NCBI GenBank assembly: GCA_030295235.1
Contig: AP026146.1
Span: 744,001 to 808,000 of the forward strand
Source of the DNA: Fistulifera solaris
Lineage: Eukaryota
Direction: 5' to 3'
DNA: 64,000 nucleotides
Numbering within the stretch: the first letter of the stretch is position 1; every line of letters begins with the position of its first letter. The translations under genes and the position numbers were made by a program. This document shows positions 26,584 to 40,230 of the stretch, one piece after another. Below the pieces are notes generated by a model. The model worked only from the letters and a program-made list of their open reading frames with translations. It did not search any database and was not told the origin of the DNA.

Positions 26584-28509
26584 TGTTCGTTTGATGAATT
26601 GATGTAATGCCGAAAGCTTGTTCAGATCGAGCTGGCCTCTTTGTGTGTTTTTTTTTTATGAAAGTAGAGGTACTTGCGCAATCAAAGGATGACTAAATGA
26701 TTTTCCCTCAACATGCACAAAGGTAAAGAAGGCAGAACGAACGGTTCGTGGGACATTTTCCATCCAAACGAAGAGCGTCATGGGCCATTCGAAATAAGAC
26801 CAATTTTATCCTCCAGTTGAACAAGACCATTTACTATTAGATGAAATGTAGCTTGTGAAGTTCTTTCGTAACCGGTAAGAAGAAAAGAACCCTAAAGAAT
26901 GCTTGACTTTTGAGAAGAGGCCCAACGATAATACGAAGTTATGACTCGGCACTCGGCTATCAGCACCTTAATCTATAGACTAGATTCGCATTCCGCGTTT
27001 CAAGAATCGCGACATCCAACGCTGCCACCTGCCTCCTTTACAATCACATTTACGTTTGAATTTTTTCACACACCAATAACATACCTTTACGTTTGAGTAC
27101 TTTGTATGAGCAGTTGGGTACTTGAGGAGATCAAACGTTCTCCCTAGAAAATAAGGACTGCTGCATGAAACTGCAAGCACAATTTAAGAGACAGATTTTA
27201 CTATCTAGGAAATGAAGCCATAGTTGGGGCTGTTGGGAATGTGCCATGTTGAATAAAGCACGCTCCAGCAATAAAGTGATAGGCTTCGAGCAGCACTTGG
27301 GGTTTTGCTCTAAACTCTTGCGGTGGCGACAGATGGATAAACTATAAAGTCTGCTTCCATTTGTGCCATTTCTTGTGGACCAAAATTGAAAGCGGTTTTT
27401 ATCATAGTTTTCAATGAAGCGAAGATAACTTGTCGAAGTAAGCGCGTACTGCTAGAGGTTCACAAAGTCGATTCAATCTGGTTTTGCTGTTTCAGATATT
27501 AGTCTTCTCGCGCTTTCGAATACCAATGGTGCTATTTTGGTATCTTTTACTTTCATTGAATTTTTAGGGGAGCTCTGTCGCTGTGTGAAGCACCCCCAAT
27601 CTGATAGCATGAGGATAAGTTGTCGTCCCCTGATGCGGGAAATTGTATCCTTTCACGTAGGCCCCGTAGAGAAATGTACCAAGCAGAGGTGCGTTCCCGT
27701 GTCTTCCGTTCGCAATAAGTCAGGTGATGCGCGCGACTAGACTTTTTAACGTCGCTTCAACTGCACCTCAATCTTAAAACCGTCTTTTAACCAGGAAAAT
27801 CGCAAACTCAACGAATTCGATTGATCTTAACTTTTTTCCCTCCTTCCCTCCAACTTTTCTCGTTTCTCTTGTCTTGACGTCTTCATAAAGTCTTCGTGCA
27901 CGAATAGTGAAGAGCGTTAGCTGCCAGCTCAAGTGTTTTATTTTTCACTTCAACTATTATGGCTGCTCTAACGCAGTATCCAATACATGTCAGATTCCGT
28001 GATACGGTGGAATGCCTTCAATTTTGTATTTCTGACCAAACGGACAGCTTTTTGAAGGCACATTTTGAACCTTTGAACGACACAATATCACCGAAAAACA
28101 AGAGAAGGAGGAAAAAGTCATGGTCCAGTCAGTCTGTTTCATCACCAAAACGGTTCTTTTCCATGTCGATCTCATTCGCTACTTTTCAACGATCCAACCA
28201 GTCAGCTCGAACAAAGTGTACCTTCCCAGTGGACCGCCATCTCGACTTTTCTGCATTAAGGTGCGAGCCGATTGTGCGTCATGGCTGCCTTCGACGCAAG
28301 AGTACACAGACTGAATGAAAGCCGCTCAGCAAGCCCTTTGCTGTCAACGATACCTGCGTTGGTGATTCGACTAGTCTCGCATAAACTCTTTTACTACATG
28401 GCTGTATCTCTATAATTTGCTAAACCTAAGTTTTCTATGACGGATTTTTCTATAGCCTTCCTTTCCAAGCTCACTTTCGTGCAGCTTGTTTGCCTCATTT
28501 GTCCGACTA

Positions 28510-30015
28510 TTAAAGCTCCGATGACAAGCGTTCTCGTTTCAACTGAACCTTTTTCTTCTTTTTTCTTTTTGATATCGACAGATTCTTCATCAGTACTTTC
28601 ACTACTATCAAAGATATCATCATCGTCATCTTCACCTTGCCAAATCTCATGCTCCGCTAGAGGTCCATCTTCTTCTTCGTCGTGCCATTTCCAGTGATGC
28701 TTAACTTTGCGTTTAGGTGATTTGACACAGCGAAACCCAATATGACCTGCCGTAGTGGTTCCATGTACTACTTCTCGTGCTCCTAGCGTTGCGGCATGAT
28801 TGAACGAACCATCCAGTGAATCGACATAACTGGCTCCACGAAGAATTCGTGCCTTATGTTTCCCTCCCCTCATCCATTCCCATACGTTTCCTGTCATATC
28901 ATAAATGCCCGCTGCATTTGGAGGATAATACTTCACGGGAGATGTCCCTCGCCATCCATCCATAGCTTCGTTTTCAAAGGGAAATTGGTAGGGTCCCCAC
29001 AAGTTGGCGTGTTTCGCCGCAATGTTCCACTCTTCCGTCCAGTCCAGTACCGGCACAACATGATCTTCCGTATCTCCATTATCAGGATGTGGAATAAAAT
29101 CCCCAAGATGCGGCTCTCCCCATGCAAACATGGTACGATTTTCTACATGTCCACGAGTGTGTCGCGCCGCCGCTTCCCATTCCCATTCACCCGGCAATCG
29201 TTTTCCCTGCCAATGACAGTATTCCGCGGCATCCCGATGACTGACATGAACGACTGGATGATGCTCTCGCATTTTGTAATTCGAGTTGGGCCCTTCGGGC
29301 TGACGCCAATAGGCTCCTGGTACAACGACCCAATTGTCGGCGTGCGGATCGACTTCAATGTTCTCCGATTGTGTTTGGTTCTTCGCGCTTGCAGCAAACG
29401 ATATCAAAACAAACGACCATCCGAATTTTTCTGCTTCCGTTTCATGATACGTAGCCTTGACGAATTGAGCGAAGTGTTTGTTCGTAACAAGAGTCTCATC
29501 TATGAAGAAAGGATCGACACGGACCGCTCGTGGTGGCGTAACGCCTCCATCGAGAGGATGTGTTTCGACAAATCCGTGTGGTTTCGGAGTTACTTTCAAC
29601 CCACGAGCCGCATCTCGTTTGTGTCGTTCTAAAACGTGGTTACGTTTCTCTGTAGGATGCGCTCGATCCGGAATATCATCTGGATGCAATGGATGATGTT
29701 GCAATTCTGCGTGCTCGATTTCTCGATGAGATGCGTCAAAAGAAGTCCCGAAAATATAGCGTAACGAATTGTCAGTGTGAAAACCGTGACGGGTGACCCC
29801 GTCAGAATGCATACGACCTAAATAGACCATGCCGGGGTACTCTTCGTCATTGGGATCGGGATGAGCAGAAGAATCATCGAATGTTGTTGCTTCCTTGTTA
29901 CTACTACTGCTGCTGTCACCGCTGCTGCTGTGCGTGAAGACTGCTAGAAGCAGCAATAAGAAAAGTGGAAAAGTATGATTTACTCGTCGTGTTTGTAGCA
30001 TGTTGTTTGCCATCA
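28510..30015 (-). CDS. Formylglycine-generating-enzyme-fold protein, SUMF2/pFGE-like (non-catalytic)
   Basis: Signal peptide; VTN..F..FV, HPVVHVS..DA..YC.W.GKRLP.E.EWE, DMTGNVWEW, RILRGASYVDSLDGSFNH, GFRC. The catalytic Cys pair is absent. A frameshift in the poly-K tract restores ...RERLSSEL* at 28510. Confidence 0.85.
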
Positions 30016-30527
30016 TAATATTATGACAACGACAACAATTTGATGAGAAACAAAACACGCGTCGAATAAAACGCGATACCTGGTAGCGTGAAAGGAGCGT
30101 TTTTACGACTCCATTTCAGTCATGAATCTTCAGAATTCAGAAAGTACTACTAGCCTACTGGTACTGGTATGCTTCCTTATTCTGATTTGACCTAATTGAC
30201 TAAAATGAAATGATTGCTAGAACACTTACTATTCGATACAATTTTGTCCGCATTTCGCGGATCCTCATCTTCCATGATCAAGTAAATTCGGACAAGAGAG
30301 TGTTGAATGGAATGGACGGGAGTCTTGTTACGAACGTTCGAACGTGTCGATGAAATTAGGAATTCAGCAGTAAGGTTTACTGTGTATTGCTGAGCTATAC
30401 AATAAGGACCAGTGCCAATTTATGCAAATTTGTGAAACTTTGAATGAATGAAATACGATGACTTCCTACTTATTAACAATGTTAGCATAGACTATCGATC
30501 ACCCACCGCACAGAATGGTTCATTTGC

Positions 30528-30914: not shown

Positions 30915-32796
30915 TTTGGATCAGTTGAAGGGCTAAGATTTCCTTGGCAAGCATGAAAGCAAAGAGATAGGAACAACTGTTGAAATAAATAATGAAATCT
31001 GATGAACATTTTGAACCAAGACGAACGGCAAAAAGTTTTCTTGAGAATCTCCGTGACGAATGTCGTGAAGAAGATCGTGACCTGATTTAACGGAGTCTCC
31101 GGATAAACTTTAACTATAAATTTTAGTGTAATAAGAGTCAAAAGCGGGCCTACTCAGTACTCAGTTGTTAAAAACCTTGTTCGCTTTCTGCGCGGTAAAA
31201 TAATACTTAGTATCCCCATTCCCCATATCTGGCAGGTCTGTTCTGAAAAACAAACAAAATGCACCCACTTTATCTCTAGATCCTAGACCCTCTCTCTAGA
31301 GAACCGTATCAATTATCAATTGCTTTTGAAATTGAAAAACTATTCTTCTTGTTCAATGTCGCCAGACGACGTTATTTAGATCGACATCGAACGCAAAAAG
31401 GTTGCCGTTGAAAAATTGACAGGACATAAGTACGCTAAACTCTACATTTTTATTTTTATTTTATTTACCTAACGAAAAACTCCATAATCGCCCACAAACC
31501 AAGCACCGTGCCTAGTAGTCGAGTTACAGCTATCTACCTTCATTGGCAATCACCGCACCGATTCATGATGTCGAAAAGCCACGGGGATAATGACTACAAT
31601 ACTTACAATAGACGCAGAATTGTAAAATCAACAATATCACGACTGGGTTTCAGTCATGAATGTTGATTCGTTGGAGCGATACTATGTTGCAACCAAACCC
31701 TCGTTTCGTTGGTGAAACGGTAACACCTTATCGAGCTCAATACAGTGCAATAGATCTATGTAGCATTTAGGATATGCAGCAATTCATGGCTTTTTCTAGG
31801 GACCTGGATTATAGAACACGTTTAAGAGTTGCCACGTAACAGGTATATTGTTAACCTTAACGTGTACGTTCTCTGCGCGGCAAAACCGATATTCATACCC
31901 AAAGTAATATGTGTCATTTCGTGTTGCGGTCGGTCAACAAAGGCGAATGGTAGATTGTTAGATCTCGTAGCGACCATAGTAGTAGGCGGCTGAATAATTT
32001 CTCCGTGATAGCTTTTGCTATCATTGTGTTCGGATAATTTTGGATTCGGAGAAAATTTCGAAATTGGTGGAGGGCCCAAAATACGCAACGAAGGTGTCGC
32101 TGTGTGGGTGGTTGACGAATAATAGTTCGTACGGCTCGTTGTACTTTCTATTGCAGGCTGTTCGACGTGTTCAGAGAGGACCAAGTGAATGCTTCCGAGG
32201 ATCCTGACTCCTCTCGCAACAATGAATGCAAAAACGATCGCCCGTAAATTCTAACGTGGTTGCATCGTCTTTATCCTTGTCTTGCGCATTGCGGATACAA
32301 CGCATAAGTCAACACTCGATGCTTTCTTTTAGTGAACTTGGTCTTTGTACGGAGTTGGACTTGGAATTTTGGCTGAAATGTATGCGTTTGACTACTTTGT
32401 AGGTGAAAAACAGTTTGCAATGAATCGGAAATCGGAATGTGCGACGACGAATGGACGATGACGGCTTTATTATTTTTTGTGTCATTCTAAAGGAAGTCTC
32501 TACTATAGCCTCATTGTGTTGACGACCTTTTGCCCCGACTGTATTTCAGTCATGAGTCATGAGTGATGTTGTTGGACTAATCGATCTGCAATCTGCACTA
32601 AAAAGGTTACTACTTGTACTTTGTACATGGCGGGTCTTTGTAACCCATCTTCGTTGGCGCGCCGGCATACCTGCCTAGCGCCATGCGGAATGCGGACTGC
32701 ACCGACGCAAAAATCATTGCATCCACCATCCACCATGGTGATTGAATGGAAGCAGTGTGCAAAATTAAAAGTAACGCAGTGAGGAGACTTGGAAAA

Positions 32797-35700
32797 ATGG
32801 ACGAGAATGCTTCTATCAACTCTTCAAATGATCCTTTCAGATTGCTGCGACGGCCTACGCGTGACAACGTTACAACCGAACGATCATCAATCCTTTCTTC
32901 ATCGCATAATCCCTTGCCTCCTCTTGCTCCGCCGCCGCCTCTTTTGCTGTCATCGCCCCCGCGTTTACCTCAGACAGGGAAGTCTTCTCTTCAAAGACAT
33001 GTAATGGTATCTCCAAATATACAGAAAGATGCTGCAAAACGAAGACAGACCGAAGAAACGGCTTTTACGAGTCTTTTCACGTCACACACAACAATACCAC
33101 AACGTCCAACTTTGAATGGCTCTTTACCGCAACAAATCGATTCTCCGCAAAACTCGGCCGCTTTTTCGCAATTATCAGCAAGTCCTATCGAAGACGTCGA
33201 TCCGGAGGAGAATTTACAGGAAGTAAGCTTAGAGCAGCGGCGGCAATGGACTCAAGAAAAGCCGAATCCTACGCATTCTTCGCCTCCTCGACGCCCGTCA
33301 ACGTCCTTGCTACTTCAACAACCGCGACAGCGTCTTTCGTCTTCCGTACATCACGAAGATGCAGTACGCACGGCGTTAGAGCAAGCTATTCAAGCAGCAC
33401 GGGACGAGGAAGCAGAGCAGTGGCAGCTGCATCTAGAGCATGAACGGAAGAATTGGTTGGAGTCTTGTCAACAACGAGAGCGTGAGTTGCAAGAATACTA
33501 CAAGAACTGGCACAACGAATTAGATCAGCAAGTGACCCGTCTAAATGAACAGCAAAAGGATATTCAGCAGCAACAGGATGAACTGCGACACGAGAAAGAA
33601 GCTTGGATAGCGGAATGGACCCGTCGTGAGGAACAAGTCAAAGAACTAAGCGACCAAGCCGAGGAGAAACGAAAAAGAGAAGAGGATCTGCTTCAGGATG
33701 CATTGAGTAAACGCCAAAATGCCATGGAACGTGCTACTTTGCTCGAACAATCATGCGAACAGGTTCAAGAAGTGCTAGATTTGAAAATGAGCGAAGGTCG
33801 ACAGGCTTACGAAGATCTACTGGTGCAACTGGACGAGAAAGAATCCGAGCTGCTGTCTGTCAAAGGTCGTATTCAAACTTTCATCATAGAAGATCGCAAT
33901 GCTACACAAGCAGCGGCGGAACGCCAAATGTTGGCATCCGCACAATTGGATGAAACACAACGGCGCATTACGGAAGAGCAAAATAAGTTAGGAACACTGA
34001 ATGAGTCCGTCCGAATTCAGCAAGAAAGACTTTTAGAATTGCAACAGCTTTGCCGTGATGAACAAGCTAAGACGGAAAGAACCAAGCAAGAAAACGATTT
34101 ATTATTGGCTAGCGCGCAGCAACGACTCGAAGCAATGAATGCGGAAATGACAGATCGCTGTCGTAAAGTTCAAGACGAGTTAGAGCAGCGTCTACAAATG
34201 CTCCAAGTAAAAGAGGAGCAGTTATCGACATTGAAACGCGATAATTCGCAACGATTAGCTGACTGGCGTCAGCAAAACGAACAATTATCGCGAGCACGTG
34301 CGGAACATGAATCTCGCGTACGTGAGTGGGATCGCATGGAGGAGAGGCACAAAGAGCGCGAAGAAGCATCGCAACAACAGTCTCGCAAAATTGAATTCCT
34401 GTTACGAGACGCACAGGCTGAGTTACATCGTTCGCAAGAACAACTTGAATTTGCCAGAAATGAGCAAGCCTCCCTTCACAAAGAGCTTTTAGCATTGAAG
34501 CGTTCATCCAAAAACGAAAAAATCAAGTGGGCTACCGAAAGGTCGGCTTTGTTGGAGCAGTTGGAAAAAACGCAGAAGCAGTTGGAGCGGTCAGCTACCC
34601 AGGCTAGGCAATCGGAAGAGGCTATCCAAAAGTTGCATAAACAGCGCCAGTCGGCCGACGAAGATAGGCGTCTGATGGATGATTTACTGAGCAAGATGGA
34701 AGAAAATTCAGAATCGTTAGAGAGAAAGCTACAAAATGTTCAGGCAGAAAGGACAAAGTTGGTGGCTATTCAAGGAGAGTACGGAGTCCGCATGGCGGCT
34801 GTCGAAGTTTTGGTAAGTTCAGTTATGTCATTCTTCGTGTACACATGGCGCCATTGCAGATTCACTAATGATTCGATTCTTGTTTACGTTAGGAACGAAG
34901 TGTGTCCGACGAGAGAGATCGCTTCATGAAAGAAAAGGAGCAGCTGCAGCATTCATGCCGACGGCATCAGCTCGCAGTATTACAGTCTGTTTTGCGACAG
35001 CCATGGAGAGAAGAACAAGAAGAACTAAGTGCGGCCTTTTCGAAATGGGTTCGCGTTGCTTTGTTTGATAACGAACAGGAAGAATTTGAATCAGACCGTC
35101 AAAAGTTTCATAATATAATTGAGCGATTGCAGCAAGAACTTCAAGTCAGCCAACAGCGCCGTGGACAGGAACAGGAAATGATGCAGGAGCAGTTCAAACA
35201 GTTGGAGGAATCTTTGAAAGAGTCCAATCGGAAGCAAGCAGAGTGGAATCAGGAAGAAAAGGCTTTGCGGATCAAAATGGAAACGGCGCACAATCAAGCA
35301 GTCAAGCTCAAAGAGGAAAACGCTGTTTTGCTTGAAAAGCTCTCAAAGTCTCAACAGGAGATCTTACTCGTACAGAAGGAAAATAGTATGGATACTGCGG
35401 AGTTGGAACAAAAGGTCCGCCAGCTGGAGTGTGGGAAGGACGAAATTGTCAAAGAAAAGGAAAACTTGCAAGCCGTTCGAAAGGAATTGGAGGTTCTTAG
35501 AAAAGAACTCGAAAATGTCGATGCTGAGAAGCAACGGTTGGTTGAAGCGAATGCCCTTCTACAACAGAAAGTAAGCACTTTTGACTCGGATAACGTCATT
35601 CAGGAAAAGCGCTCGCGCGCTGAAGCGATGCGCGATGATATGAAAGTGATACAGTATACAACCAAAATATCCGAGCTGGAGAATGAAGTCATTGATTTAC

Positions 35701-36370
35701 GATTAGAAAGGGATACTTTGAAGGAACAACTGAGAGCTTCTACATGTGACTTCACACCGAGCTTTGCCGGTCAATTCCAAAAAGAGTCCAACGCGCGAGT
35801 AGCTGACCTCGCAGCGTCTTTAGGCGAACGAGAACGCCTTCTGTCTGATCGTGAACGAGACTCAGTTATGCAGATGGAAGCCACACAAAATCGACTGCGA
35901 CTACTTGCCGAAAAGCTCCGCGAGAAAGACCAAGAGCTCGAAAAACGCGAAAAGCAAATCAAATTTGATATGGAAAAAGGCGAGCTAGCCAACAAAAGGT
36001 TCTGGAACTTGCACAAACGTTGAAGCAACAGGCGGCAGACCTTGACCGCGACCGTCAAATCTTAGAAAATCGGATACAAAGTTGTGACTCTTTAGAGAAA
36101 CAGCTGAATGTTTGGCAACAACAGCTGGAGAACACTATTCCCTTGAAGAAGGTTTAGTTGTCTGGAGTAGCGGAACAATCCGTACCACGAGTCGTCCCAC
36201 AGCAACAGTTGGAAGAACGTCAATTGCCTACCATTATCTGTATCCTAGCCCTCGATACAATAGATACGCTGATGGTTATTGCGGAATGCGCCCCGTGCCA
36301 TTCTGAAGTCTTGTCTAACAACAATATAATGGACTGCCTACTTCCTAGTCTATCTCACGCTAAAAGCTAG
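32797..36370 (+). CDS. Large coiled-coil protein (intron 34813-34892; frameshifts after about 35995)
   Basis: P/S-rich N-terminus, then long E/Q/K/R heptad-rich region. A GTAAGT...TAG phase-0 intron joins ORFs 32746..34929 and 34902..36023. The end coordinate is approximate. Confidence 0.75.
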
Positions 36371-36926: not shown

Positions 36927-37625
36927 CTACCAGCTAGTAATAGTTGCATTAACGGATGTATTGAAAAGACGGATAACAAATATATAGAGCGTAAAAGCAT
37001 GGCAGAAATCGTTGAAACATGCAGACGTTATCGGGTTTTCAAGGGTATCTTGGTCGTCAAGAAAGGCGGCGGCTTTACATTCGGAGCCCTTCAACGAATC
37101 CATGCATGCACTGCTGAGCTCGATTTTGAGCTGCAAGCTGATAATATCTTCGAGAATACCAACGCAAGCGATCTCCAAGGAAGACGCAACAACTGATGTT
37201 GACACATCCGCATCCGCTGCGAGTGGCGAAAGACGTCGGCAATATCCGCACCTACAGCAGTTAAACAAATACTTGCACTGGTATTCGCTGTATGAGCAAA
37301 CAAAGGCACAGGTCGGGCCACAGAGTTCGCGTCGTTTTCCGTTAGCTACCAGATGGAGACTTTTTTCACCATCGGAGGGTACATGCAAGTTGCGTCGATC
37401 CTCATCATCTCCTTGATCCCATTCGGCGCCGCCTCCGAGAACGGAAAGACCTTTCATCACGGCGGCCAGGGCAGGAATCATTATTTCGCTAATAGCAGCA
37501 CCCTCTTCAGAGGTGCACGTTCCTGGTGGATCGTTGGTGTTAAACCAGGCCACCGACATATCCATTCTAACAGCAGTGCCCAATGTGGGCAACAAAAAAG
37601 TTAGTAGAAAAGAAAAAGGAGCCAT
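36927..37625 (-). CDS. Secreted precursor with RRxL sites flanking an 8-Cys peptide
   Basis: Signal peptide MAPFSFLLTFLLPTLGTA; RRNL, RREL, then CGPTCAFVCSYSEYQCKYLFNCCRCGYC, then RRL. The C-terminus is uncertain. Confidence 0.72.
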   Translation of the reverse strand: MAPFSFLLTFLLPTLGTAVRMDMSVAWFNTNDPPGTCTSEEGAAISEIMIPALAAVMKGLSVLGGGAEWDQGDDEDRRNLHVPSDGEKSLHLVANGKRRELCGPTCAFVCSYSEYQCKYLFNCCRCGYCRRLSPLAADADVSTSVVASSLEIACVGILEDIISLQLKIELSSACMDSLKGSECKAAAFLDDQDTLENPITSACFNDFCHAFTLYIFVIRLFNTSVNATITSW

Positions 37626-38485: not shown

Positions 38486-40230
38486 CTAGAACTTTCCGCC
38501 CATGACAAAGTTTTGGATCATCTCCAACGAACGCTTTGGCTGATCTGTTGGGACCATGTGACCGGCATCATAAACTTGCAAAAAAGTGAACCCATCCGAC
38601 GTGCGTGCTTTGCCAACATCAAGATACTCATGCACATCGGCACCTTGAAAGCCTTTTTTACCATTCCACTCCAGTTCGTAGGTCCATTTTTCTGAAACCA
38701 ATTTGATCGTGATGAGTATAGGAAATAATCGACAACTTCTATGACACCTCAATTGACGTACCATTTCCAATATAGTTGCAAATAAAGTCAACATCACCGA
38801 CGTAAATCAGAGCCGGGTAGCCGGCATTCAACAACTCGGCAACGTATCCCGAGAAATCCTTCATCCAGTCGGTATGAAATTTCATGTTAATTCCAAAGTT
38901 GCACGATTCCCACGTGTGCGAATGCTTTTCGTCTACATGCAATGCCTTTTTCGTCTCTTCCCGGTTCAAGAAGCTCGAGACGTGCGAAAAGTCATAACAA
39001 AGGGGACGCACATCACATTTTTTGCGAATGTCGTAAGGGTTAAGACCGGTCATCTGATAAGGACTGGTCAAGGCGGTGTTGCAGACCAAAAAGGCTGTCT
39101 GACAGGCAAACGTATTGACAATAGAATCGCCTTCGTTGCACTTTTGAATCAAGGAAACGCATCTCGGCACAGCATCTTGCATGGCTTCGTATGTCTCTTT
39201 GACGACGACTTTGATGCCGTGCGAATTATTCCATACCATATCAGGATAAGCCGGATACTGCTTTTCGGGAGACGTTAGTCCATTACCAATGGCAAGGCCC
39301 GCATAGGGTAATTGGATAGTTCCATCACGACCTTCCTCATTACCCCGATAAATGCGATGAGAAATGCTAGGGACTAAAATAGATTCGTAACAATTGTGAG
39401 GAAAATTTCGAAAGAACATGAAGCCCCCATTATCAATCTCACTCACCATAATGTCCGGCGTACGACTCCCCAACAATGTACAAAGGAGATTCCTGATACT
39501 CGGGATAGGTCTGGAAGAAAGCCTGTAGAAAGTAGTACGCATCTTCCGCTACCATTTGCTCGTTTGCATCCGTCTCTTGACCGTAGGAGAAGCCGACGCC
39601 CGCCGGTTGATCGAGCCACAAAACGTGTGCAGTTTCTGTCCACGAATGGGGATTGACCGTAGTGCTTTTCCCGTCTGGATTGACCGAACAAGGTCCATTT
39701 TCCGTCAACAACGCCAGCGTAGAGGAACAGCCAGGCCCTCCTGTTAACCAAACGATCAACGGAATGGCCCCGTTGTCTTTTGTTGCCGAATTACGCTTCT
39801 CAAACATCCAGAAAAACAGATGCTTGTCTTCACCGTTCGCATCGTATTCACTGCCTTGAATGTCCATATATCCTGCAATACTTTTGCTCGATGCATCGCA
39901 AATATCATCGTGTCCTTCATTAACGTGTAGCGAGTGTACTTTATTTTTAAAAACGAACTGACTCTTGGCTCGTGCGGCCGGCGTCTGACAATCAAAGACA
40001 CCCGCCGGCAACTGTTTTGCTTGCTCGTGACTCATGCATTCTGAAGGAATCGCTCCTGCTTCACACCATTCGCAGCGTTCTCCGGTAGTATCATCGATTG
40101 TCTTGACGCAAGAAGTCGAATCGGTTGCTTGATTGCACGATGATTCGGGAAAAGAAGACCGCAACGACGAAGCGGCTGCTGCGGAAGCCGTCAAAAGGCT
40201 GTAGGCGGAGAAAATAGAACCAATTTTCAT
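38486..40230 (-). CDS. Serine carboxypeptidase, family S10; 3 exons (introns 39446-39374 and 38761-38692)
   Basis: Signal peptide; WLTGGPGCSS, DQPAGVGFSY, GESYAGHY|V (catalytic Ser), GD.DFICN (Asp), AGHMVP.DQP (His). Both GT-AG introns restore the frame. Confidence 0.95.

What the first reader, a model, noticed from the sequence alone, without database searches (positions are those of the whole stretch)
36927..37625. Prepropeptide predicted to release a 28-aa, 8-cysteine peptide between RRxL sites
Seen: signal peptide, acidic pro-region, RRNL and RREL, then CGPTCAFVCSYSEYQCKYLFNCCRCGYC (37322-37239; spacing C-3-C-3-C-6-C-5-CC-1-C-2-C), immediately followed by RRL and a second domain with 3-4 further Cys. 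Established: RxL motifs are proteolytic processing sites in diatom secreted and biosilica proteins. Inference: processing would excise a compact four-disulfide peptide built like a toxin, defensin or peptide signal, or a metal-binding peptide. The flanking halves may fold together as a carrier. I do not recognise a described family, which makes this the best candidate here for an undescribed secreted-peptide system.
Basis: partly seen in the sequence, partly recalled or inferred. Interest (0 to 1): 0.72.

Follow-up and report, generated by a model that had tools for sequence, protein, structure and literature searches.

The report
Diatom nested eight-cysteine peptide precursor
A diatom gene encodes a small secreted protein in which a conserved eight-cysteine mini-peptide sits between cutting-type motifs inside a loop of a folded carrier domain, so it is probably released as a separate peptide, but neither the release nor its role has been shown.

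Summary
In detail: ORF 37625-36927(-), core C102-C129 (28 aa, 8 Cys, about 3.21 kDa oxidised) between R-E-L and R-R-L. Two corrections. The real protein is about 191 aa: the last 41 residues, with 2 Cys, are read-through of a stop (TAA in the homeolog, CAA here). 'RREL' is peculiar to this copy; only REL is conserved. The gene is the single-copy 8-Cys branch of a Fistulifera solaris family with at least 16 intact 4-Cys paralogues (profile probability 97.6%). In 49 family rows, RxL follows the core in 49 and precedes it in 47; the C-flank always has 3 Cys and the N-flank one invariant Cys. AlphaFold2 folds the two flanks together into a ferredoxin-like alpha/beta domain with the core as an insert. 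The core is under purifying selection (dN/dS 0.06), not hypervariable. Best reading: an RxL-processed precursor releasing a disulfide-rich peptide from a two-chain carrier (about 60%); role most likely an extracellular ligand, untested. I found no description in 10 literature searches. This scan had already noted 4-Cys and 6-Cys precursors of this build on other DNA; new here are the 8-Cys branch, its link to the 4-Cys class, and the stop loss.

The parts
36927..37625 (-). Whole ORF as it stands in this subgenome, 232 aa + stop; no intron needed (collinear with the homeolog over 191 codons)
37572..37625 (-). Probable signal peptide, aa 1-18 (hydropathy only)
37398..37571 (-). N-flank aa 19-76: strand, Cys37, long helix, Trp69, short acidic stretch; first half of the predicted ferredoxin-like carrier
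   Evidence: dN/dS 0.11
37386..37397 (-). RRNL (aa 77-80), first RxL motif; R77, R78 and L80 invariant in 10 of 10 eight-Cys rows
37332..37385 (-). Variable spacer aa 81-98; 12 non-synonymous vs 2 synonymous differences to the homeolog
37323..37331 (-). REL (aa 99-101), RxL motif directly before the core; invariant in 10 of 10 eight-Cys rows
37239..37322 (-). 28-aa, 8-Cys core (aa 102-129); average mass 3207.7 Da with four disulfides, net charge +1
   Evidence: dN/dS 0.06
37230..37238 (-). RRL (aa 130-132), RxL motif directly after the core; present in 49 of 49 family rows
37053..37229 (-). C-flank aa 133-191: two helices and a strand with Cys154, Cys174, Cys183; second half of the predicted carrier
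   Evidence: dN/dS 0.25 for aa 130-191
36927..37052 (-). Read-through tail of 41 aa (former 3' UTR) after the lost stop; CAA at 37052-37050 where the homeolog has TAA
   Evidence: public contigs of runs X1 and X2 span the place with no other letters

Best explanation
A secreted precursor of a diatom family with a nested design. After the signal peptide is removed, the N-flank (strand-Cys-helix) and C-flank (helix-helix-strand, 3 Cys) fold together into one ferredoxin-like alpha/beta domain, probably tied by two disulfides, at least one between the halves (inferred). The cysteine core hangs in a length-variable loop of that domain. The diatom RxL-directed protease cuts on both sides, releasing a 27-29-aa four-disulfide peptide (3.0-3.3 kDa) and leaving a two-chain carrier that helped to fold or shield it (inferred). 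The peptide most likely acts outside the cell on a conserved protein partner, as a signal or regulatory ligand (my odds about 35% of the release scenario; defence about 25%; wall, adhesive or other role the rest). This subgenome's copy has lost its stop codon and may be the weaker of the two homeologs.
For: Shown: motif and Cys conservation in 10 of 10 eight-Cys rows; RxL after the core in 49 of 49 and before it in 47 of 49 rows, against 0.6% per residue in window ORFs; linker from Trp to first core Cys varies from 14 to 42 aa; core has 4 Cys in 40 rows and 8 in 9, C-flank 3 Cys in 49 of 49, and the N-flank Cys is an invariant column; homology of the two classes P 97.6%, E 4.7e-12 and 15-26 bits with core and RRxL motifs masked against a best shuffle of 8.9; flanks modelled together at block pLDDT 65-89 with aa 70-127 mostly under 50, paralogue model mean pLDDT 79.8; ferredoxin-like neighbours head both fold searches (best Z 7.7, rmsd 2.9, 99 aligned; Z 6.9, rmsd 3.0, 93 aligned); dN/dS core 0.06, N-flank 0.11, spacer about 2. 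From print: mature silaffin peptides lack their RRIL and RRNL tails and RXL is proposed as a general diatom protease motif (PMC4557024, passages).
Against: No peptide or cleavage evidence exists for this family. The RxL protease is described as unknown (PMC5525289, passages) and the motif as a 'potential' site (PMC9650480, passages). Both models assign strand character to the post-core RR(x)L stretch, which could mean it is packed and poorly accessible. Two of 49 rows lack the upstream RxL (P0018, P0037). The 49 rows are not independent (many from one genome, some near duplicates). Fold Z scores under 8 can reflect a common arrangement only, and Foldseek found nothing at E <= 0.001. Within the 8-Cys class the flanks are more conserved than the non-Cys core positions (0.67 vs 0.51). 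dN/dS per region rests on few sites (core: 3.5 N, 7.5 S differences). Disulfide pairs could not be read from the models. The functional step has no direct evidence.
Confidence: 0.58

Rival explanations
1. The protein is nicked at RxL sites, or not cut at all, but the core stays in place: the working unit is the whole small protein, a surface or wall component that displays a disulfide-rich knob.
For: Post-core RR(x)L predicted as a short strand; the 4-Cys core is modelled at pLDDT about 69-79 in context; P0018 and P0037 lack the upstream RxL; RXL is typical of biosilica-associated proteins (PMC5525289, passages).
Against: Sites on both sides of the core in 47 of 49 rows and a linker of 14-42 aa; even Cys counts in core and in flanks separately; no Ser/Lys- or acid-rich repeats of silica proteins in the sequence.
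Confidence: 0.22
2. Insulin-like logic: the two-chain ferredoxin-like domain is the active product and the cysteine core is a lid or inhibitor that is cut out to switch it on.
For: Flanks are more conserved than non-Cys core positions in the 8-Cys class; an ribosomal-S6-like or SEA-like fold is also predicted for the secreted Pseudo-nitzschia protein MRP1 (bioRxiv 10.64898/2026.03.25.714164, section 5 read).
Against: Core has the lowest dN/dS between homeologs and in the 4-Cys class is more conserved than the C-flank (0.56 vs 0.38); doubling of core cysteines is hard to explain for a discarded piece (inference). No MRP1 sequence was available to compare.
Confidence: 0.12
3. The released core is a fast-evolving defence peptide or toxin (defensin-like).
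For: Small, disulfide-rich, weakly cationic (+1 to +2; 4-Cys class +1 to +3); the 4-Cys class is expanded in clusters with frameshifted and decayed copies; a formal C-x9-GxC match to the gamma-core motif (motif recalled, no call).
Against: No Pfam family for the core or the protein; no PDB sequence match; core under purifying selection; the 8-Cys class is single-copy per subgenome in all searches made.
Confidence: 0.15
4. Metal-binding peptide (metallothionein-like) with free thiols.
For: 8 Cys in 28 aa with CxC, CC and CxxC motifs.
Against: Probable signal peptide implies an oxidising compartment (established knowledge); no His in 9 of 9 eight-Cys cores; Cys gained in an even number; aromatic-rich core.
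Confidence: 0.04
5. About this copy only: the window's homeolog is decaying, and the C34 copy carries the function.
For: Stop loss with a 41-aa tail that adds two Cys and a hydrophobic patch; 12 derived amino-acid changes here against 6 in the C34 copy, with P0003 as outgroup.
Against: All 12 conserved Cys and all three RxL motifs intact; overall dN/dS 0.28; 12 vs 6 is a small sample; release of the core need not be affected by a C-terminal tail (inference).
Confidence: 0.25

Closest known systems
Diatom RXL-processed precursors: silaffin Sil1p, silacidins, cingulins, frustulins (PMC4557024, passages); Sin1 RXL domain (PMC5525289, passages)
   Same: Signal peptide, RxL motifs bounding a short unit; RRNL is one of the tails that mature silaffin peptides lack.
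   Different: One unit, not tandem repeats; Cys-rich and aromatic rather than Ser/Lys- or Ser/Asp-rich; the unit is nested in a predicted folded domain; no link to silica shown.
Plant buried peptides: PawS1/SFTI-1 in preproalbumin and vicilin-buried peptides (bioRxiv 10.1101/2020.05.26.118075 and PMC4216380, passages)
   Same: Works like: a disulfide peptide cut out of a precursor that also yields a disulfide-linked two-chain protein.
   Different: No sequence relation found; different protease signal (RxL, not asparaginyl endopeptidase sites); alpha/beta carrier; in PawS1 the peptide lies before the small subunit and evolves faster than the albumin, here it lies between the halves and is conserved.
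MRP1 of Pseudo-nitzschia multistriata (PMC6261938, passages and supplement 1 searched; bioRxiv 10.64898/2026.03.25.714164, sections 5 and 9)
   Same: Small diatom protein with signal peptide, no known function, predicted ribosomal-S6-like or SEA-like fold; S6-type chains appear among my fold matches at Z about 5.
   Different: No sequence comparison was possible; MRP1 homologues were reported only in Pseudo-nitzschia, Fragilariopsis and one Nitzschia, F. solaris having been searched; MRP1 is reported under positive selection; the fold is very common.
SiMat7-like (silicanin) proteins (PMC5501833, passages)
   Same: Signal peptide, RXL site, eight conserved cysteines (as in the 4-Cys paralogues in total).
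   Different: They have a C-terminal transmembrane domain; this family ends at the last strand without one.
UniRef label 'Saposin B-type domain-containing' on four paralogues
   Same: Small Cys-rich secreted proteins with a CxxC.
   Different: No Pfam saposin match in 43 rows; models are alpha/beta. The label looks like an automatic misnomer (inference).

Membership tests
Diatom RXL-processed secretory precursors | N-terminal ER signal peptide | tested here: inconclusive
   Hydropathy 2.03 over aa 2-12, hydrophobic N-termini in homologues; no dedicated predictor available
Diatom RXL-processed secretory precursors | Conserved RXL motifs bounding the unit | tested here: met
   49 of 49 downstream, 47 of 49 upstream
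Diatom RXL-processed secretory precursors | Cleavage at RXL in the cell | not testable with these tools
   needs MS or tagging
Silaffins / silacidins | Tandem Ser/Lys-rich or Ser/Asp/Glu-rich peptide repeats | tested here: not met
   single Cys-rich unit
Silaffins / silacidins | Association with biosilica | not testable with these tools
   no localisation data
SiMat7-like / silicanins | C-terminal transmembrane domain | tested here: not met
   homologues end at about aa 191; best 19-residue hydropathy in the read-through tail 1.36
Saposin B-type | Pfam saposin profile match | tested here: not met
   0 of 43 rows at E <= 0.1
Saposin B-type | All-helical fold (recalled) | tested here: inconclusive
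   both predicted models hold strands from each flank; they are predictions at pTM 0.64 and 0.72
Defensins / cysteine-rich toxins | Profile or sequence match of the core | tested here: not met
   0 Pfam families; best PDB sequence hit E 1.8, unrelated
Defensins / cysteine-rich toxins | Hypervariable mature peptide beside a conserved pro-region | tested here: not met
   core dN/dS 0.06; non-Cys identity 0.51-0.56 in core vs 0.35-0.46 in spacer
Defensins / cysteine-rich toxins | Known disulfide fold of the core | tested here: inconclusive
   8-Cys core modelled under pLDDT 50; not folded alone
Vicilin-buried peptides / helical hairpins | Pair of CXXXC motifs | tested here: not met
   spacings 2-4,3,6,5,0,1,2 and CxxC-x8-C-x5-C in the 4-Cys class
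MRP1-like / SEA-like | Ferredoxin-like (S6-like) fold | tested here: inconclusive
   ferredoxin-like chains at Z 5-7.7, within the range that common arrangements reach
MRP1-like / SEA-like | Sequence homology to MRP1 | not tested
   no MRP1 sequence came from any tool; the supplement searched gave none

The most novel reading that the evidence does not exclude
Pennate diatoms have an undescribed peptide-ligand system in which one ferredoxin-like (SEA-like) carrier holds exchangeable disulfide cassettes (4 Cys, 8 Cys, perhaps 6 Cys) that the RxL protease releases as cell-to-cell signals, possibly a distant structural relative of the mating protein MRP1.
Probability: 0.17. Interest if true: 0.85.

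Novelty: new variant of a known kind. Interest (0 to 1): 0.52.

Why it matters
Gene-encoded disulfide-rich signal or defence peptides are well known in plants and animals; my searches listed no paper on such a family in diatoms. The S. robusta pheromone SIP+ is a disulfide-bridged heptapeptide (PMC12843257, passages), so peptide signalling exists in pennates. This family gives exact masses to look for, a non-silica substrate with which to find the unidentified RxL protease, and a small new disulfide scaffold. The 4-Cys versus 8-Cys comparison shows a cassette changing inside a stable carrier. Its weight is limited by the lack of any functional data, by a range that seems narrow in the searches made, and by earlier notes of this scan on paralogues.

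Tried and rejected
Pfam: 0 families for the ORF, the core and nothing above cut-off for 43 rows. PDB sequences: only E >= 0.1 matches. ESM Atlas: no usable hit for the window protein (best 0.78) or a paralogue (TM <= 0.41). Foldseek: none at E <= 0.001; no saposin and no classical SEA entry among the 50 rows shown, which does not exclude them. Metagenome scan: 96 pattern matches, 0 confirmed. Pattern searches of the own genome found only the two homeologs plus unrelated matches. Expression: no RNA holder listed; the four runs are only guessed to be RNA and are contigs, so their cover (one contig at 36867-37711) and depths cannot show transcription or rank the homeologs. An intron at the C-terminus was considered and rejected: the tail aligns with the homeolog's sequence after its stop. 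Cluster names for the 8-Cys homologues could not be looked up, so their organisms are unknown. Rows left out of counts: P0015 (core out of frame), P0024 and P0025 (same proteins as L017 and L025; in A3 only), the frameshifted C16 copy and the decayed C7 and C8 copies; alignment A6 uses the homeolog, not the window copy. Literature: 10 searches; 'Fistulifera' with 'saposin' gave 0 papers; subscription journals and bioRxiv supplements were not visible and may bear on novelty and on MRP1.

Full report
Observation. The ORF at 37625-36927 on the minus strand reads as described. The core is aa 102-129 (37322-37239), 28 aa with 8 Cys, average mass 3207.7 Da if four disulfides form, net charge +1. In 100,000 shuffles of the ORF, 256 had 8 Cys in 30 aa and none had an RxL-bounded block with 6 or more Cys.

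Context. The window is G000:C35:744001-808000 of a 51.7-Mb assembly in 62 contigs. Named records of paralogues identify the species as the diatom Fistulifera solaris. A syntenic second copy lies on C34; I call it the homeolog, as this species is an allodiploid (recalled). Neighbours are a serine carboxypeptidase S10 gene upstream and a coiled-coil gene downstream; nothing ties them to this gene.

True length. The homeolog encodes 191 aa, and all 7 homologues end at the same place. The window has CAA where the homeolog has TAA, and the following 41 codons align with the homeolog's sequence after its stop. Contigs of two public runs from one study span the codon without other letters, so it is unlikely to be an assembly slip, though those runs may be the same strain. 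The tail adds Cys203, Cys208 and a hydrophobic patch. With P0003 as outgroup the window copy has 12 derived changes and the homeolog 6.

The 8-Cys class. In 10 rows (window, homeolog, 8 database proteins) all 8 core Cys, Cys37, Cys154, Cys174, Cys183, RRxL at 77-80, REL at 99-101 and RRL at 130-132 are invariant. The first spacing varies (2-4 residues), the rest does not. Only the window copy has a double Arg before EL. One more relative, P0015, has its core out of frame and was left out. All own-genome searches gave one copy per subgenome; the tool warns that counts are lower bounds.

The wider family. Weak hits led to 16 intact paralogues with a 4-Cys core (CxxC-x8-C-x5-C), mostly clustered on C15 and C16, plus one frameshifted and two decayed copies. 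The two classes are homologous: profile probability 97.6%, E 4.7e-12 over 141 columns, and a profile of the 4-Cys class scores the ten 8-Cys proteins at 15-26 bits with core and RRxL motifs masked, against a best of 8.9 among 1776 reported of 2000 shuffles. A tree separates 9 eight-Cys from 40 four-Cys rows at 100/100, rooted only for drawing. Across these 49 rows RxL follows the core in 49 and precedes it in 47, the Trp-to-core linker runs from 14 to 42 aa, the C-flank has 3 Cys in 49, and 45 have a single Cys before the core, 4 having extra ones further upstream. The rows are not independent. In the 8-Cys class the last Cys takes the place of the first Arg of the paralogues' RRxL.

Structure. 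AlphaFold2 with 43 rows gives the window protein (aa 19-191) a mean pLDDT of 61.7: flanks 65-89 by block, spacer and core mostly under 50. A short paralogue reaches 79.8, its core forming two short helices. Both models match ferredoxin-like alpha/beta chains over their whole span (IS200 transposase Z 7.7 and 6.9; ACT, S6 and porter domains Z 5-6.7), so the first strand and helix come from the N-flank and the later helices and last strand from the C-flank. These Z values can mean only a common arrangement, and Foldseek found nothing significant. Both models give strand character to the post-core RR(x)L stretch, which counts against easy cleavage.

Selection. Between homeologs dN/dS is 0.06 in the core, 0.11 in the N-flank, 0.25 in the C-flank and about 2 in the spacer (12 vs 2 differences); counts are small. 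Pairwise non-Cys identity is 0.51 in the core, 0.67 in the flanks and 0.46 in the spacer for the 8-Cys class; 0.56, 0.56/0.38 and 0.35 for the 4-Cys class. The core is not hypervariable, which favours a conserved partner over an arms race (inference).

Mechanism. Shown: architecture, conservation, homology, stop loss. Predicted: split carrier fold. Inferred: secretion, cleavage at RxL with loss of the motif as in silaffins (PMC4557024, passages), release of the core, a two-chain carrier, and action as an extracellular ligand. I put release at about 0.6; the role is open, with a signal or regulatory ligand as my first guess.

Comparison. It shares the RxL grammar of diatom silica-protein precursors but none of their repeats. 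It works like plant buried peptides, where a disulfide peptide is cut from a precursor that also gives a two-chain albumin (passages), without being related. The predicted fold recalls what a 2026 preprint reports for the mating protein MRP1 (section 5), but I had no MRP1 sequence, the fold is common, and PMC6261938 (passages) reports no homologue in F. solaris. The UniRef label 'Saposin B-type' on paralogues is not supported. Other papers seen as passages only: PMC5525289, PMC9650480, PMC12843257, PMC5485032, PMC5501833, bioRxiv 10.1101/2024.04.15.589526 (88); the rest as search listings.

Novelty. Ten literature searches listed no description of this family; the library lacks most subscription papers. 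Earlier notes of this scan describe a five-gene 4-Cys group in this genome and a 6-Cys nested group in another; the first fits the paralogues found here, though I could not see its sequences. Verdict: a real, conserved, undescribed variant of the diatom RxL precursor theme, with a testable product and no functional evidence yet. Interest 0.52.

Noticed in passing
window 35993-35997 (+) vs L002:570-580: The A-run in the coiled-coil gene 34926-36023 is one base shorter than in the homeolog, so the frame ends early; assembly indel or real frameshift.
   Followed up: partly
window 32746-34929 and 34926-36023 (+): Two long coiled-coil ORFs overlap by 4 bases; probably one gene with an intron or frameshift; no Pfam family above cut-off.
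   Followed up: no
window 38486-40230 (-): Serine carboxypeptidase S10 gene in several ORFs, directly upstream on the same strand, also beside the homeolog. Such enzymes trim peptide ends (recalled), but adjacency is no evidence of a link.
   Followed up: partly
G000:C15:1183000-1260000 and C16:1117000-1195000: Clusters of 4-Cys paralogues; the copy at C16:1117679-1118181 is frameshifted.
   Followed up: partly
L032 (G000:C8) and L033 (G000:C7): Decayed 4-Cys paralogues with stops or frameshifts.
   Followed up: partly
P0018, P0037: Family members without the upstream RxL motif; natural tests of whether two cuts are needed.
   Followed up: no
window 36565: A contig of run X2 has one extra A here, a second hint of short-run indels in the assembly.
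   Followed up: no
window 28394-30016 (-): ORF with a sulfatase-modifying-factor (FGE) domain, overlapped by a 258-aa ORF on the other strand.
   Followed up: no
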